IMG/VR virus record: IMGVR_UViG_3300032220_000751
From: a virus
Taxonomy: Duplodnaviria > Heunggongvirae > Uroviricota > Caudoviricetes
Strand: one strand, 5' to 3'
Length of the DNA stretch: 64,000 bases
Under the pieces are notes generated by a model. The model saw only the letters and a program-made list of their open reading frames with translations. It was not told where the DNA came from and searched no databases. Each line of letters starts with the position of its first letter. Position 1 is the first letter of the stretch. This document shows positions 6,939 through 17,207 of this stretch, piece after piece. The translations under genes were made by a program, and so were the position numbers.

Positions 6939-7595
6939 ATGGCTGTGCAAGAAATCTCCATCAACCGGGCTCTGACTACTGTCAAGAACCTGAAGAAAGA
7001 AATCGAAGAATACTTCAACGAGCCGCGCATCTTCGTGATCGCTCTGCAAGGTACGGAAGACCGCGTGGTCGCACACGGCTTCGACAAAGCGTACATGGAA
7101 AAGCAGATGCAATCGGACTACGACAGCTACATCAACAAGCTGGCGCGTTACGATGCACTGAAGGCCGCGATCGTCAAGTCCAACGCTGAAACCAAGGTCT
7201 CCATCAACGGCCAAGAATACACGGTTGCCGCTGCTGTCGAACTGAAGGCCACGGTCAAGTTCAAGGAAACCCTGCTGACGCACTGGAAGAAGCAGATGGC
7301 TACGATCTCCAAGGTCGTCTCCGATGCCAATGCCAAGCTGGAATCCACGCTCAAGACCGACATCGACAACATCAACAAGTCCAGGACCGAAGCCGACGGC
7401 GACTCTGCCCAGGAATACATCGCCGCCCTGACTCGTCTGAACACCGAGCGCTACACGGTCAAGGTGCACGACTACCTGCAGCTGGCAACCAAGATCAAGG
7501 AACTGGAAAACGAGATCCGCACCATCAACGAAGAACTGGACTGGGCACTGTCCGATTCGAACATGAAGACCCTGATCTCTGTCGATCTGGGTTAA
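6939..7595 (+). CDS. DIP1984/DUF6847-like all-helical protein
   Basis: ALTTVKNLKKEI...LKAAIVKSNAETKVSINGQEYTVAAAV...LENEIRTINEELDWALSDSNMKTLISV pattern recalled for this family; codon bias as strong as the capsid gene. Confidence 0.55.
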   Translation: MAVQEISINRALTTVKNLKKEIEEYFNEPRIFVIALQGTEDRVVAHGFDKAYMEKQMQSDYDSYINKLARYDALKAAIVKSNAETKVSINGQEYTVAAAVELKATVKFKETLLTHWKKQMATISKVVSDANAKLESTLKTDIDNINKSRTEADGDSAQEYIAALTRLNTERYTVKVHDYLQLATKIKELENEIRTINEELDWALSDSNMKTLISVDLG

Positions 7596-7720
7596 GTCTC
7601 ATCGCTTGAAATAATCCCTGTGAATTGGTGTGCATGAAGTTAGCAAACCTTATTCACCTATACGGCCTGTAGGTAAAGTAATCTGGCCAACCAACCAACT
7701 ATCTTTTGCGAAGATACTTG

Positions 7721-7793
7721 GTTCCATTAGCTCACTTGGTAGAGCAACAGACCAATAATCTGTAGGTCGCCGGTTCGATTCCGGTATGGAACC
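7721..7793 (+). tRNA. Atypical tRNA-like gene, anticodon AAT (nominally Ile), probably degenerate
   Basis: Acceptor GTTCCAT/ATGGAAC, D stem GCTC/GAGC, anticodon stem ACAGA/TCTGT with loop CCAATAA, T arm GCCGG-TTCGATT-CCGGT; C33, C15 and no encoded CCA. Confidence 0.7.
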
Positions 7794-7815
7794 CCTATAC
7801 TAGCAGTAACCCCTC

Positions 7816-7900
7816 AAAGGTTAAAGCTTTAAAGGTCAAGTTTCAAAGATCTAAAGTTCATCTACCTTAAAGCTCAATGGTTAAAGCTTGTAGTTAAAAG
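7816..7900 (+). repeat. AAAG heptad-like repeat array
   Basis: AAAG at 7816, 7823, 7831, 7845, 7853, 7869, 7883, 7897 plus in-register variants (CAAG, AATG, GTAG); period 7-8 nt. Confidence 0.8.
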
Positions 7901-7958
7901 CTCTTGTAAGTCCACATCAAAAGCGCGTTCGAAAGAACTAGGTGAGAGTAAGCACCGA

Positions 7959-8122
7959 GCTACGCGTGTGGCAATGTACAGCGAGTCACAGGGACTCCGA
8001 ATTCGTAGTAGCAGTAAACGTGCCGTGTATCACGTCTGCCTATCGGCAATACATGTTGGACCTGGTCCTGCGTCTGGGCGGCCTATCGGCAACGCAACGG
8101 GTGAGATCGAAAGGTCTCACCC
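7959..8122 (+). ncRNA. Unassigned structured RNA with pseudoknot, 12-nt direct repeat and GNRA hairpin
   Basis: ACGTG/CACGT stem whose loop CGTGTAT (8024-30) pairs with ATACATG (8049-55); GCCTATCGGCAA at 8038-49 and 8081-92; GGGTGAGATC-GAAA-GGTCTCACCC 8099-8122. Confidence 0.45.
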
Positions 8123-8134
8123 AATCCCCATATA

Positions 8135-8712
8135 GCCAGGGTGGTGAAATCGGTAGACACAGCGGACTTATCGTCATGATTAATTCATGATATTGAGCAC
8201 CTTCGAAAAATGAGTCAGTAGTCTAGTGAGACAGCTAGAGCAGCAGCTGGGCGTAACGACTCAATCGAAAGACGTTGGTGAATCCTTTCAAATTCGGCGA
8301 ACACTAAACTTGAATGAATTGTGCCTGTCCGGGAACAGGGGAACAACACTTTAGTCCATTGTAATAGATGGTAAAGGTGCCAAGCGAAAGCATCCCAATT
8401 CAAGCATGTCAACGCCGAGCCAAGCCTAAACAAGAGATTACAGACTAAGACACTCTTGGGATTGTGATGTGTGCCGAAGTCGTGAATGTTTACGAGTTAG
8501 GATAGGCATAATCCATGGAAGGTGTAGAGACTATACGGAAGGGATCTAAGTTTGGCGTCACACTCCTATGTCGGGGGCTTCGTTCAAATATGATCAAGAC
8601 ATAGTCCAGACCACAAACAGCGTAAGCTGGTAGTGAAAACTATAGTGGTAAGAAAATCCGCCGCGTCAGTCTAATAAACGGCGTACGGGTTCGAGTCCCG
8701 TGCCTGGCACCA
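8135..8712 (+). tRNA. trnL: tRNA-Leu(UAA) split by a group I intron (exons 8135-8169 and 8653-8712)
   Basis: 5' exon GCCAGGGTGGTGAAATCGGTAGACACAGCGGACTT, 3' exon AAAATCCGC...ACGGGTTCGAGTCCCGTGCCTGGCACCA; spliced anticodon loop CTTAAAA, long variable arm, encoded CCA. Confidence 0.9.
8170..8652 (+). mobile_element. ORF-less group I intron (trnL-type core)
   Basis: P1 GACTTA/TGAGTC with U8169.G8212 wobble; P3 CCTTTC/GGAAGG; P4 TTCGGCG/CGCCGAG; P7 GACTAT/ATAGTC (R GTAGAGACTATA, S AAGACATAGTCC); terminal G8652. Confidence 0.9.
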
Positions 8713-8734
8713 TGAATTGCAGTAGTAAAAAACA

Positions 8735-8809
8735 AGTTACTCATGCAAGGTTCGAGTCCTTGAATGTTCTGAACTTTAATCGGTCAGAAATCCATTGAGA
8801 TGAGTAACT
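8735..8809 (+). ncRNA. tRNA-like RNA with T arm first (permuted, YrlA-like topology)
   Basis: 10-bp terminal stem AGTTACTCAT/ATGAGTAACT, T arm CAAGG-TTCGAGT-CCTTG, second stem AATG.TTCTGA/TCAGAA.CATT; no clear D arm. Confidence 0.5.
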
Positions 8810-8979
8810 AACCTAGTTAAACTTGCGGTGTATATCTAGGAAACATGCTCCTCTGAGTTAAGGGTGTTGTAATCGCTAGGTTGGGTTTAATTTTCATGTT
8901 TATACCAATCGGTAATTACGAAACCGCCTGTTTTTTAACCGGTTTACTTTATTAGTGCACGCGCAACGTATCTACTCCA

Positions 8980-9250
8980 TGGATGTAAATAGATGGAGTT
9001 GGAGAAATTGCCTGGTAGTTTACAGCGAGGTTAGGTCTCAAGGAGGTAGATTCTTCCTGAGTACCTTGACATGAGGCACTAGATGAGCAGGGTCGACTTC
9101 TCCACGGAAGTTCCCTCTCGTGGGAATCTGTCATTAGACGTGCTGAACTAATAGAGTGAACTGTCATTGTGATGCTTACGGGGACATCGGTAAAAACCCC
9201 TGCAATTACCAAGTGAGGCTCGCATGAAGTAATTAGACCCGAAACATCCA
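8980..9250 (+). ncRNA. Unassigned structured RNA with hammerhead-like junction elements
   Basis: TGGATGT(A)/GAAACATCCA, GGGTC 9090-94/GACCC 9236-40 abutting GAAA; core strand noncanonical. Confidence 0.3.
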
Positions 9251-9329
9251 AACCAAACAGTTGTAGTTTTAACCATTTTTCTATTCTAGTCAAATAGTAA
9301 ACGTGGATACGTAAGAGCGAACGGGTACA

Positions 9330-9414
9330 GATCAATTAGCCGGACCGTCAATCCGGAGAGTCCTAATTGATCAACAAGGGGGAGGGTGATCCACTAACGC
9401 CGCTTCATCCTCCC
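9330..9414 (+). ncRNA. Two strong hairpins 5' of the hammerhead
   Basis: GATCAATTAG/CTAATTGATC (9330-39/9363-72) and GGGAGGGTGA/TCATCCTCCC (9380-89/9405-14). Confidence 0.45.
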
Positions 9415-9423
9415 ACTTCTAAA

Positions 9424-9499
9424 CATTACTGACGAGCCGTTCAAGTCGGCATCAATGGGTGAAAGGCCCACGAAATCACAGTAGCATCGTGATCTAATG
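9424..9499 (+). ncRNA. Type I hammerhead ribozyme with branched stem II
   Basis: Stem I CATTA/TAATG, CTGACGA 9429-35, G9436-C9471, GAAA 9472-75, stem III ATCAC/GTGAT, cleavage triplet AUC ending at 9494. Confidence 0.65.
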
Positions 9500-10063
9500 A
9501 AGGGTAAAGTCTTACCCTCTACTGACTGCGCTTAGGCGTGGAGGTCGGTGAAGTTCTTGGAGGAGCCGCGAGGACACTATTCGTGACTGGATAGTGAACT
9601 ACCCGGTAGCTTGCCAAGAATGGCTACGCGCGCTTTGAATTTAAGCCCTCTCTGATCAATTGGGTTTAATCCTCAGACCGCGAAGTTGTAAGCGAAAGAA
9701 TCCTTACTTAAGGGCCAACCGAAAGGAAGCCGCGATGGGTAGGAAACATGGAAGAGTCTCCTTACGGGAGGTGGCCCCTAAAGTAGTACCATGTTGTGGA
9801 ACGTGGTGTTACCGATTTTCTCTAAGCCTTGAGTGGCAAGTGCCATGAGGTAAAGCTTCCATGTTTTTGATTCTAGTAGTAAGCAGCCTATAGTTTGTCA
9901 TCGCTTGCGTTTTTCGATTGACGCGGGATCACGCCTCAGATGGGCAAGTGTTGGTTGAAGCACCTACCACTTGCTCATTTGCGGCCTGGCTACTCCCTGC
10001 TGGCATGTCTCGGTCTAGTCAACTGAGTCGTCCTAGTATAGTGACTGGATGGTAAACTATGGG
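9500..10063 (+). ncRNA. Large unassigned multi-domain structured RNA
   Basis: TTCTTGG/CCAAGAA 9554-9620; 11-bp 9744-54/9856-66; 16-bp 9887-9902/10048-63; 13-bp 9938-50/9968-80; no credible ORF. Confidence 0.55.
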
Positions 10064-10085
10064 ATGTTTATTTAATGCATATTAA

Positions 10086-10121
10086 CCACATGGGGCTAGT
10101 CCTCATGTGGGTTTTATGCCC
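10086..10121 (+). terminator. Terminator closing the RNA island
   Basis: CCACATG/CATGTGG stem then GTTTTATGCCC. Confidence 0.65.
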
Positions 10122-10150
10122 TTAGTTTTCTTTTTGTTAATAAAGGAAGT

Positions 10151-10573
10151 GTGATGGATAAGTCTAAGTTTCCTGATAACTTCGATTTGTTTACTACGAT
10201 TGGGACGGTACGTCATCCTCCCCAAAGTCGTACCTCAGTGCTGGTATATGGGTTAAATCGTGACATTAATGATGGGATAAAACTTATTGAATCCTTGGAT
10301 AGTAATGACATGGTTGCCAAAATCTTTAATGACAATGGCGCTTTAATCTGGGAAGTAACCTATAGCGATAAAGTGATCGACTGGGCTGTAGAGACGTTGA
10401 TTCACTTGAGGGTGGTTCTGGTCAGGTCGCAGAAGTACATTGATACTGCATTCCCAGTTCGTGAGCAAGTACTCATGGATATAGTGGACTTCTTAAGCCT
10501 GGTGGCGTTCCGACGCAAATTCAGTGTGGAGATCCACATCTGTAAACAAAGGAAGAATGATGTACGAGAATAA
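10151..10573 (+). CDS. Hypothetical protein
   Basis: AAGGA RBS, 140 aa. Confidence 0.7.
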   Translation: MMDKSKFPDNFDLFTTIGTVRHPPQSRTSVLVYGLNRDINDGIKLIESLDSNDMVAKIFNDNGALIWEVTYSDKVIDWAVETLIHLRVVLVRSQKYIDTAFPVREQVLMDIVDFLSLVAFRRKFSVEIHICKQRKNDVRE

Positions 10574-16730: not shown

Positions 16731-17207
16731 ATGACTGATAAAACCATTTATCGTGAATCGGCCAAAGCTGTTAATCGTGGGTATGCAGCTGTAGCGCTCT
16801 TTAATCCAAAGAATCGCGATAACGTGGGTTCTGCACTACGAGCAGTGGGTTGCTATGATGCAGCTATGCTCGTAGTGCAGGGTAAGCGTTATGTGCGAAG
16901 TGTTCTGGATGTGAATGATCAGTGGAAGCACACTCCGTTGATCATGACTGAGAATGTCATGGATAATATCCCTCATGGATGTGTTCCTGTAGCAATTGAA
17001 TTCGTAGATACAGCCAAGTCATTGGTTGACTACGTCCATCCTGAACGTGCTTACTATATCTTTGGACCTGAAGACGGTTCTATCCCTAAAGAGGTCATGA
17101 AACTGTGCCGTGATGTAGTTTATGTTCCCACGTCGTTGTGCATGAATCTGGCCGCCACAGTCAATGTGGTGCTTTATGACCGTTTATCTAAAATGAAGAA
17201 GAAATAA
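16731..17207 (+). CDS. SpoU/TrmH(TrmL)-family SPOUT RNA methyltransferase
   Basis: NPKNRDNVGSALRA, YIFGPEDGSI, VYVPT..CMNLAATVNVVLYDR; minimal 158-aa SPOUT domain. Confidence 0.9.
   Translation: MTDKTIYRESAKAVNRGYAAVALFNPKNRDNVGSALRAVGCYDAAMLVVQGKRYVRSVLDVNDQWKHTPLIMTENVMDNIPHGCVPVAIEFVDTAKSLVDYVHPERAYYIFGPEDGSIPKEVMKLCRDVVYVPTSLCMNLAATVNVVLYDRLSKMKKK

What the first reader, a model, noticed from the sequence alone, without database searches (positions are those of the whole stretch)
7693..7796. Degenerate tRNA with a bacterially unusual AAT anticodon, nested inside a larger RNA
The cloverleaf is clear, but it has A34 (in bacteria A34 is essentially confined to tRNA-Arg ACG), C33 instead of the invariant U33, a C15.C48 Levitt mismatch, CCT in place of CCA, and a possible G-1:C73 pair (a tRNA-His identity element). 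An upstream hairpin (AACCAA 7693-98/TTGGTT 7718-23) competes with the acceptor stem. It is enclosed by the long-range helices of the AAAG RNA. Inference: it works as a processing signal, a nuclease decoy or a conformational switch, not as a translator.
Basis: partly seen in the sequence, partly recalled or inferred. Interest (0 to 1): 0.7.

Follow-up and report, generated by a model that had tools for sequence, protein, structure and literature searches.

The report
Jumbo-phage isoleucine tRNA, odd anticodon loop
This is a real, well-folded tRNA gene of a 310-kb jumbo phage with a rare anticodon loop (C33, anticodon AAU); it most likely helps the phage read its many AUU isoleucine codons and is not a dead or purely structural tRNA look-alike.

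Summary
Window 7721-7793 is a strong tRNA (Rfam 62.7 bits, cut-off 29; ARAGORN Ile-AAT). It has C33, A34, C15.C48, C73, G-1 and CCT in place of CCA.

The reading "degenerate, not a translator, nested in a larger RNA" is not what the evidence favours.
- **C33 recurs in phage isoleucine tRNAs.** These include cultured phages PAK_P1, Acj9 and vB_AciJM_313. This scan has reported C33 phage tRNAs before on other DNA. The exact loop CCAAUAA occurs in other, unrelated tRNA lineages.
- **The anticodon fits the phage's codon use.** The genome has only two tRNAs, Ile-AAU and an intron-split Leu-UAA. ATT is the codon most over-used in bulk genes relative to the phage's own optimised genes; TTG and TTA rank 4th and 7th.
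- **A relative keeps the tRNA.** A roughly 95%-identical strain in another metagenome keeps the loop and shows one listed change in the tRNA (C73 to U), against 8 in the 101 bases upstream.
- **The enclosing helices are no better than chance.**
- **The upstream hairpin is real.** It shows one compensatory pair change.

Best reading (about 0.55): a working phage tRNA-Ile variant for AUU. Decay or a non-translating role remain possible. No RNA data were available.

The parts
7721..7793 (+). tRNA body, positions 1-73: 7/4/5/5-bp cloverleaf and a 5-nt variable loop
   Evidence: Rfam RF00005 62.7 bits, E 3e-11. ARAGORN Ile-aat. The cloverleaf energy of -23.3 kcal/mol is close to the minimum of -24.5 for the isolated tRNA.
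7752..7758 (+). Anticodon loop CCAAUAA: C32, C33 (7753), A34 (7754), A35, U36, A37, A38
   Evidence: Sequence and the Infernal alignment. The relative in run X5 has the reference letters here: at 7753 and 7754 the only other letters come from a second contig of depth 5.8, which reads U33 and C34 at 7753/7754, i.e. a CAU anticodon.
7794..7796 (+). 3' trailer CCT: C74 and C75 are encoded, A76 is not
   Evidence: Sequence. No CCA-adding enzyme domain (PF01743) in the phage genome, so host enzymes would have to finish the end (inference).
7693..7723 (+). Hairpin just 5' of the tRNA. Its outer stem uses tRNA bases 1-3. The inner stem is 7700-7705/7711-7716.
   Evidence: Present in the minimum-energy folds. 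Pair 7704-7712 changes T-A to A-T in the relative; pair 7698-7718 is broken there. Unique in the genome.
6939..7595 (+). Upstream 218-aa gene, among the most codon-optimised in the genome; probable co-transcription partner
   Evidence: phrog_1491. GC3 0.77, with 0 ATT among 16 Ile codons and 0 TTA. No terminator-like site between it and the tRNA.
8135..8712 (+). The phage's only other tRNA: tRNA-Leu(UAA), split by a 483-nt group I intron (8170-8652)
   Evidence: ARAGORN with introns allowed. Rfam Intron_gpI 39 bits, E 9e-8, below its gathering score of 50.
10086..10110 (+). Terminator-like hairpin followed by a T run, closing the RNA island on the + strand
   Evidence: Consensus scan: 10 pairs, 6 of them G-C, tail GTTTTATG.
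16731..17207 (+). 158-aa SpoU-family RNA methyltransferase. Any link to this tRNA is speculative.
   Evidence: PF00588 52 bits. Only weak likeness to TrmL (25.8 bits against a cut-off of 190.6).

Best explanation
It is a working phage-encoded isoleucine tRNA of an unusual type.

Proposed sequence of events:
1. It is transcribed on the + strand, probably together with the highly expressed gene 6939-7595 and the rest of the 2.5-kb RNA island (inferred).
2. Host RNase P and 3' processing enzymes cut it out, and the host CCA enzyme completes it (inferred).
3. Host IleRS charges it (inferred).
4. It reads AUU by a Watson-Crick A34:U pair.

This supplements a host whose own tRNA-Ile(GAU) reads AUU only by G:U wobble. 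Together with tRNA-Leu(UAA), it covers the A/U-ending codons that the phage's bulk genes use heavily and its optimised genes avoid.

C33 is not damage. It marks a recurrent class of phage and mobile-element tRNA-Ile genes. What C33 does is unknown. The leading ideas are resistance to nucleases that cut the anticodon loop, and avoidance of t6A37, because E. coli TsaBCDE does not modify U33C tRNA (PMC8887486).
For: **Shown: tRNA quality.**
- 62.7 bits, all 21 stem pairs formed, canonical T-loop and G18G19.

**Shown: C33 recurs in phage tRNA-Ile(GAU).**
- With a less restrictive pattern, about 5 of 113 are C33.
- In 45 of 48 loci the C33 gene is the only tRNA-Ile(GAU), and in most it sits among tRNAs that all have U33.
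- Cultured examples: Pseudomonas phage PAK_P1, Acinetobacter phages Acj9 and vB_AciJM_313, the last annotated tRNA-Ile-GAT.
- Only 74 matching stretches turned up in 185,579 species' genomes.

**Shown: the exact loop CCAAUAA recurs.**
- L004/L005.
- A gut, Oscillibacter-linked family with 9 full-length sequence variants (plus a truncated copy), an invariant anticodon arm and a covarying T-stem pair.
- A eukaryote-type family in aquatic metagenomes.

**Shown: codon use.**
- ATT ranks first of all codons by excess in bulk genes (20.2 per 1000) over the 15 genes with the highest GC3 (3.3 per 1000). TTG ranks 4th and TTA 7th.
- The major capsid gene has 3 ATT among 39 Ile codons.

**Shown: a relative.**
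- The roughly 95%-identical relative keeps C33 and A34. It shows 1 listed change in the 73-nt tRNA against 8 in the 101 nt upstream (one-sided Fisher p 0.05).

**From the literature.**
- S. aureus IleRS makes base-specific contacts with A35 only, and none with C32, U33 or U36 (PMC11685878).
Against: - C15.C48 replaces the Levitt pair (0 of 871 sampled phage tRNAs).
- The discriminator is C, and U in the relative, where E. coli tRNA-Ile has A73 (my recollection).
- Unmodified A34 is a poor IleRS determinant in yeast: the tRNA-Ile(AAU) transcript is charged 16-fold less well than its I34 form (PMC11685878). Bacterial IleRS reads position 34 through its zinc-binding domain (same paper). I found no data on how bacterial IleRS handles A34.
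- No adenosine deaminase domain is in the genome (PF00383, PF14437), and no IleRS.
- C33 blocks t6A37 formation by the E. coli enzymes (PMC8887486). I recall that t6A37 helps E. coli IleRS, but did not check this.
- The host is unknown, so 'optimal' codons were inferred from the phage's own high-GC3 genes.
- There is only one relative, and the conservation test is weak (p 0.05 to 0.15).
- The cultured relatives FLC9, FLC1-1B and RP12 carry tRNA arrays without any tRNA-Ile.
Confidence: 0.55

Rival explanations
1. A tRNA gene in early decay. It was once a C33-type tRNA-Ile(GAU) and has picked up G34>A, G15>C and A73>C, and has no encoded CCA. It persists because too little time has passed, or because it is harmless.
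For: - Four departures from the C33 GAU class, whose members mostly end in A73-CCA and have G15.
- C15.C48 was seen in 0 of 871 tRNAs.
- The discriminator differs between the two strains.
- The phage has only 2 tRNAs, where relatives have up to 10.
- The island holds T-arm-like hairpins that could be relics (first-reader notes; I did not test them).
Against: - Every stem pair is intact and the score is 62.7 bits.
- The changes avoid the stems.
- The loop is unchanged in a relative whose upstream 101 nt carry 8 changes.
- The 'mutant' anticodon happens to be the perfect match to the phage's top under-served codon.
- Infernal at E up to 10 finds no other tRNA remnant between 7300 and 10400.
Confidence: 0.2
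2. A tRNA-shaped RNA kept for a task outside decoding. It could be a cutting signal that lets RNase P and 3' processing enzymes release the neighbouring RNAs of the island, a decoy for host enzymes that attack or sense tRNA, or a fold switch with the upstream hairpin.
For: - It heads an RNA island with little coding capacity (a few short ORFs of 55-127 aa, none shown to be a gene), and the only terminator-like site downstream of the tRNA is at 10086-10110.
- Each tRNA is preceded by a stable hairpin: 7693-7723 here, and 8100-8121 before tRNA-Leu.
- In the precursor, folds with the full hairpin are about 6 kcal/mol better than hairpin plus cloverleaf.
- The anomalies at positions 15, 33, 34 and 73 could lower charging.
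Against: - Punctuation needs only the tRNA shape. It does not explain an anticodon matched to codon demand, nor the link to a recurrent tRNA-Ile loop type found in ordinary phage tRNA arrays.
- The outer stem that competes with the acceptor stem loses a pair in the relative, while the inner stem covaries.
- The proposed enclosing helices are at chance level.
- The hairpin is not a repeated element in the genome.
Confidence: 0.2
3. A mis-sense tRNA. RNase P leaves G-1, the G-1:C73 pair makes it a HisRS substrate, and His is inserted at AUU.
For: G-1 (7720) and C73 (7793) can form an eighth acceptor pair. From my recollection, G-1:C73 is the main HisRS identity element in most bacteria.
Against: - C73 is U in the relative strain.
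- The anticodon is not GUG.
- Systematic Ile-to-His replacement would damage the phage's own proteins.
Confidence: 0.03

Closest known systems
Phage tRNA-Ile(GAU) genes with C33, such as those of Pseudomonas phage PAK_P1, Acinetobacter phage Acj9 and Acinetobacter phage vB_AciJM_313
   Same: Loop C32-C33-N34-A35-U36-A37-A38, closing pairs G30-C40 and A31-U39 (PAK_P1, Acj9), and the D-arm of ANN-decoding tRNAs. They are among the nearest neighbours of the tRNA body.
   Different: Those have G34, G15:C48, A73 and usually an encoded CCA, and they sit in arrays of 5 to 24 tRNAs. This one has A34, C15.C48 and C73-CCT, and it stands with a single intron-bearing tRNA-Leu.
Eukaryotic tRNA-Ile(AAU), read as IAU after deamination by ADAT2/3
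   Same: Anticodon AAU. An aquatic-metagenome family of eukaryote-type genes even has the same loop CCAAUAA.
   Different: Eukaryotes convert A34 to inosine. This phage has no deaminase domain. From my recollection, bacterial TadA is specific for the tRNA-Arg(ACG) loop, so A34 probably stays unmodified here.
Phage tRNAs that escape host anticodon nucleases through anticodon-loop changes (van den Berg et al. 2023, PMC10264068; T5 tRNA against PARIS, PMC11464382)
   Same: A phage tRNA whose anticodon loop departs from the host rule at a position next to known cleavage sites. For example, CdiA-CT(EC536) cuts between C32 and U33 (PMC11724271).
   Different: No nuclease that targets tRNA-Ile at U33 is known to me, and none was tested. 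PMC10264068 does not mention position 33 or Ile.
Codon-compensating phage tRNA sets, such as that of T4
   Same: The two tRNAs match codons that are common in the phage but avoided in its own optimised genes.
   Different: Compensation is normally done with standard anticodons. An A34 tRNA for a U-ending codon is not the usual bacterial solution.

Membership tests
tRNA (Rfam RF00005) | Cloverleaf that scores above the gathering threshold | tested here: met
   62.7 bits against 29, full model 1-71. ARAGORN also calls it.
tRNA (Rfam RF00005) | Conserved tertiary nucleotides: U8, A14, G18G19, T54-Psi55-C56, A58 | tested here: met
   All present in the sequence and the alignment.
tRNA (Rfam RF00005) | Levitt pair 15:48 (G:C or A:U) | tested here: not met
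   C15.C48. 0 of 871 sampled phage class-I tRNAs have it.
tRNA (Rfam RF00005) | U33 | tested here: not met
   C33 at 7753. C33 occurs in 27 of 1260 (2.1%) other sampled phage tRNAs, and far more often in one tRNA-Ile lineage.
tRNA (Rfam RF00005) | Mature 3' CCA and aminoacylation | not testable with these tools
   CCT is encoded. No RNA run was on record as a holder.
Bacterial tRNA-Ile (IleRS substrate) | A35, U36, A37, A38 | tested here: met
   Loop CCAAUAA.
Bacterial tRNA-Ile (IleRS substrate) | G34, or lysidine 34 | tested here: not met
   A34 at 7754.
Bacterial tRNA-Ile (IleRS substrate) | A73 discriminator, C4-G69, U12-A23, C29-G41 (E. coli identity set, from my recollection) | tested here: inconclusive
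   C4-G69 and U12-A23 are present. C73 stands in place of A73, and A29-U41 in place of C29-G41.
Bacterial tRNA-Ile (IleRS substrate) | t6A37 | not testable with these tools
   E. coli TsaBCDE fails on U33C tRNA (PMC8887486), so t6A37 is probably absent (inference).
Phage C33 tRNA-Ile class | C32-C33 before an NAU anticodon, then A37-A38, in a canonical class-I body | tested here: met
Phage C33 tRNA-Ile class | G34 and A73-CCA | tested here: not met
   A34 and C73-CCT. 32 of 41 class members end in ACCA.
tRNA-His | G-1:C73 together with a GUG anticodon | tested here: not met
   G-1 and C73 are present, but the anticodon is AAU and C73 is U in the relative.
tRNA pseudogene | Broken stems, low score, no conservation | tested here: not met
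   21 of 21 stem pairs form and the score is 62.7 bits. One listed change in 73 nt against 8 in the 101 nt upstream. With only one relative this is weak.

The most novel reading that the evidence does not exclude
C33 plus A34 define a deliberate 'armoured' decoder. This would be a tRNA-Ile that lacks t6A, is not deaminated, reads AUU by a plain A:U pair, and is invisible to host enzymes that recognise or cut the canonical C32-U33-G34 loop of tRNA-Ile. The wider C33 tRNA-Ile class of phages (PAK_P1, Acj9 and many uncultured ones) would then be a counter-defence against an as yet unidentified anticodon-loop nuclease or modification-dependent sensor.
Probability: 0.2. Interest if true: 0.65.

Novelty: new variant of a known kind. 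Interest (0 to 1): 0.4.

Why it matters
Phage tRNAs are now seen as supplies for codon demand and also as replacements for host tRNAs destroyed by defence nucleases.

This gene combines two rule-breaking features in one otherwise intact tRNA: C33, and an A34 for which the phage encodes no deaminase. It sits in a genome where the codon-demand argument is unusually clean, with two tRNAs matching the top demand gaps. It is therefore a compact test case for three questions:
- Can an unmodified A34 work as a dedicated U-reader in bacteria?
- What does C33 buy a phage?
- Do bacterial IleRS and the t6A enzymes accept such loops?

The finding also corrects a tempting mis-annotation: C33 in a phage tRNA-Ile is not a sign of a pseudogene.

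Tried and rejected
- **Orthologous loci.** The search for related loci with the upstream 218-aa protein and with the major capsid protein found no close relative in IMG/VR. An exact-pattern scan of metagenome contigs for the tRNA body with a free loop found nothing. The flanking proteins have no tblastn match near the tRNA arrays of FLC9, FLC1-1B or RP12, so synteny could not be used.
- **Expression.** No RNA holder was listed. Three wastewater 'RNA-Seq' runs hold short exact pieces of the island at depth 2-3, but the tool flags them as probably DNA. Their deep cover at the tRNA and at the intron core comes from other organisms, with 13 differences in 72 nt.
- **Phage enzymes that could explain the oddities.** No PF00383 or PF14437 deaminase, no PF01743 CCA-adding enzyme and no class-I IleRS-type synthetase. 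The search for T4 Rnl1-type RNA ligase is uninformative, because its controls did not ring either.
- **Isotype by body similarity.** The nearest neighbours are Met/Ile2(CAU), Thr, Arg(UCU) and C33 Ile(GAU), which is the general ANN-decoding class. This does not discriminate.
- **Literature.** I found no paper describing C33 in phage tRNA-Ile.
- **Rejected hits.** The Rfam 'Plastid-ycf2' match on the minus strand is the reverse complement of the tRNA, below threshold. The ARAGORN 'tRNA-Met with a 2378-nt intron' elsewhere in the genome was not examined and is probably spurious.
- **A correction to my own count.** My first estimate, that nearly half of phage tRNA-Ile(GAU) genes are C33, was an artefact of the pattern, which fixed G30-A31. 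A looser pattern gives about 4%.

Full report
**Setting.** The window is bases 67394-131393 of a 310,114-bp viral record with direct terminal repeats. Its 747-aa major head protein (phrog_3231) places it among phiKZ-like jumbo phages. The nearest cultured relative is Burkholderia phage FLC9, at 45.6% amino-acid identity. The finding lies at the head of an ORF-poor stretch (about 7596-10150) between a 218-aa gene (6939-7595) and the next plausible genes. The only terminator-like site the scan found downstream of the tRNA on the + strand is at 10086-10110.

**Observation.** ARAGORN calls tRNA-Ile(aat) at 7721-7795. Infernal with Rfam's tRNA model gives 62.7 bits (threshold 29, E 3e-11) over the whole model. 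Standard position n is window 7720+n.
- All 21 stem pairs form, and the T-loop, G18G19, U8 and A14 are canonical.
- The isolated tRNA folds close to the cloverleaf (-23.3 against a minimum of -24.5 kcal/mol).
- With introns allowed, the genome's only other credible tRNA is tRNA-Leu(UAA) at 8135-8712, split by a 483-nt group I intron.

**Is C33 a sign of decay?** No.
- I scanned IMG/VR for tRNAs with the same D-stem and the same G30-A31/U39-C40 closing pairs. They gave 55 distinct genes with CUGAUAA and 45 with CCGAUAA. With the CAU anticodon in the same context, 110 had U33 and none had C33.
- In 45 of the 48 loci the C33 gene is the only tRNA-Ile(GAU). In most it sits in arrays of up to 24 tRNAs whose other members have U33.
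- Three are in cultured phages: PAK_P1 (L165 is 100% identical to it), Acj9 and vB_AciJM_313, where it is annotated tRNA-Ile-GAT.
- A looser pattern that does not fix positions 30-32 gives about 5 C33 in 113, so the class is a lineage and not half of all phage tRNA-Ile.
- Other phage isotypes show C33 in 27 of 1260 tRNAs.
- Across one genome for each of 185,579 prokaryote species, only 74 stretches match CC[AG]AUAA in this D-arm context.
- Earlier agents of this scan reached the same view of C33 on other DNA. I re-derived it independently here.

**Is the exact loop CCAAUAA seen elsewhere?** Yes.
- It occurs in an unrelated viral tRNA (L004/L005).
- It occurs in a family linked to gut Oscillibacter contigs. 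That family has 9 full-length sequence variants (plus a truncated copy), an invariant anticodon arm and an A-U/U-A exchange in the T stem.
- It occurs in a large eukaryote-type family (no encoded CCA, tandem copies) in aquatic metagenomes.
- An acidobacterial family shows both CCGAUAA and CCAAUAA members, the same G34/A34 exchange proposed here.

**Does the anticodon make sense for this phage?** I called 290 long ORFs and used the 15 with the highest GC3 as a stand-in for host-optimal usage. These include the capsid gene and the gene just upstream of the tRNA. ATT is the codon with the largest excess in the remaining genes (20.2 against 3.3 per 1000). TTG ranks fourth and TTA seventh. The capsid gene uses ATT for 3 of 39 Ile codons and never uses TTA; the upstream gene uses neither. 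So the phage's only two tRNAs, AAU and UAA, are cognate to its most under-served codons. This is correlative and rests on an inferred host preference.

**Comparative evidence.** One biofilm metagenome from another study (X5) holds a relative. Its 285-nt contig over 7590-7874 has 14 differences.
- Nine are listed. The tool lists no difference within about 30 nt of a contig end, which is probably where the other five lie.
- Only one listed difference is in the tRNA: 7793 C>T, the discriminator. Eight fall in 7620-7720 (Fisher one-sided p 0.05).
- At 7753 and 7754 the only variant letters come from a different contig, which reads U33 and C34 there (a CAU anticodon), so C33 and A34 are kept.
- In the hairpin, 7704 T>A and 7712 A>T exchange a T-A pair for A-T. 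By contrast, 7698 A>T with 7718 T>C breaks the top pair of the outer stem, which is the part that competes with the acceptor stem.
- The right part of the island (9026-10260) is nearly identical between the strains, so the island is mosaic.

**Nesting claim.** The two proposed helices exist as complementarity, but between the flanks there are 16 helices of at least 7 bp. Shuffled flanks give 10.2 +/- 3.5, with a longer best helix. The minimum-energy fold of 7596-7965 closes with a different helix (z -2.7, which includes the tRNA and the hairpin). The only variant inside a proposed helix (7656 A>G) keeps a G.U pair, which is weak. I cannot confirm a larger enclosing RNA.

**What argues against a translator.**
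- C15.C48 was seen in 0 of 871 phage tRNAs.
- Position 73 is a pyrimidine, and it varies between the strains.
- A34 is a poor determinant for yeast IleRS unless deaminated, and bacterial IleRS reads position 34 through its zinc-binding domain (PMC11685878).
- C33 prevents t6A37 formation by E. coli TsaBCDE (PMC8887486).
- The phage encodes no deaminase, CCA enzyme or IleRS.
- On the other side, S. aureus IleRS makes no base-specific contact with C32, U33 or U36 (PMC11685878).
- From my recollection, unmodified A34 reads U well and the other bases weakly (work on glycine and Mycoplasma threonine tRNAs). I did not check this.

**Verdict.** The most likely reading is a working tRNA-Ile variant that supplies AUU decoding (0.55). 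Rivals are early decay (0.2), a non-decoding role such as processing punctuation or a decoy (0.2), and His mis-charging (0.03). It is a new variant (A34, C15, C73) of a known kind. The C33 class it belongs to is present in databases, but I found it described in no paper.

Noticed in passing
window 8100-8121: A 9-bp hairpin with a GAAA loop (GGTGAGATC/GGTCTCACC) lies 13 nt before tRNA-Leu. Both tRNAs of the island are therefore preceded by a stable hairpin.
   Followed up: no
window 9026-10260 against 7434-8306: In metagenome run X5 the right part of the RNA island is 99-100% identical to the window, while the left part differs by about 5%. This is a mosaic pattern that suggests recombination inside the island.
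   Followed up: no
window 6939-7595: The 218-aa gene just upstream of the RNA island is among the four most codon-optimised genes of the genome (GC3 0.77, no ATT, no TTA). This implies very high expression of the transcript that probably runs into the island.
   Followed up: partly
L274, L266, L267, L280, L278 and about 40 other metagenome loci: A large family of eukaryote-type tRNA-Ile(AAU) genes with C33 (loop CCAAUAA), no encoded CCA and sometimes tandem copies, in marine and freshwater metagenomes. One copy sits on a contig binned as Cyanobium (L507), which is probably contamination.
   Followed up: no
L469, L472, L481 (Pyrinomonadaceae) and L517 (Blastocatellaceae): An acidobacterial tRNA family with C33. 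Three members have CCGAUAA and one has CCAAUAA, so G34 and A34 interchange within one C33 lineage.
   Followed up: no
L254:975-1051 and L324:929-1005: A copy of the gut CCAAUAA tRNA that matches only through about position 43 and then diverges, as at an integration site of a prophage in a tRNA gene.
   Followed up: no
L484, L519, L264, L283, L285: tRNA-like genes beginning CCACTGGATAGCTCAGTCGGGTAGAGC. They have C33 Ile-type loops and an imperfect acceptor stem, and occur in Luteimonas, Alcaligenaceae and soil metagenomes. They may be elements of mobile DNA.
   Followed up: no
window 16731-17207: A 158-aa SpoU-family methyltransferase (PF00588, 52 bits) with only weak likeness to TrmL or TrmJ. 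It is a candidate tRNA 2'-O-methylase of the phage.
   Followed up: partly
genome C1:257874-260344 (outside the window): ARAGORN with introns allowed reports a 'tRNA-Met' with a 2378-nt intron. This is probably spurious, but I did not examine it.
   Followed up: no
window 7794-7844: The first 51 nt after the tRNA, which include the start of the AAAG-repeat stretch, show no listed difference in the X5 relative, unlike the 101 nt upstream of the tRNA (8 differences).
   Followed up: partly
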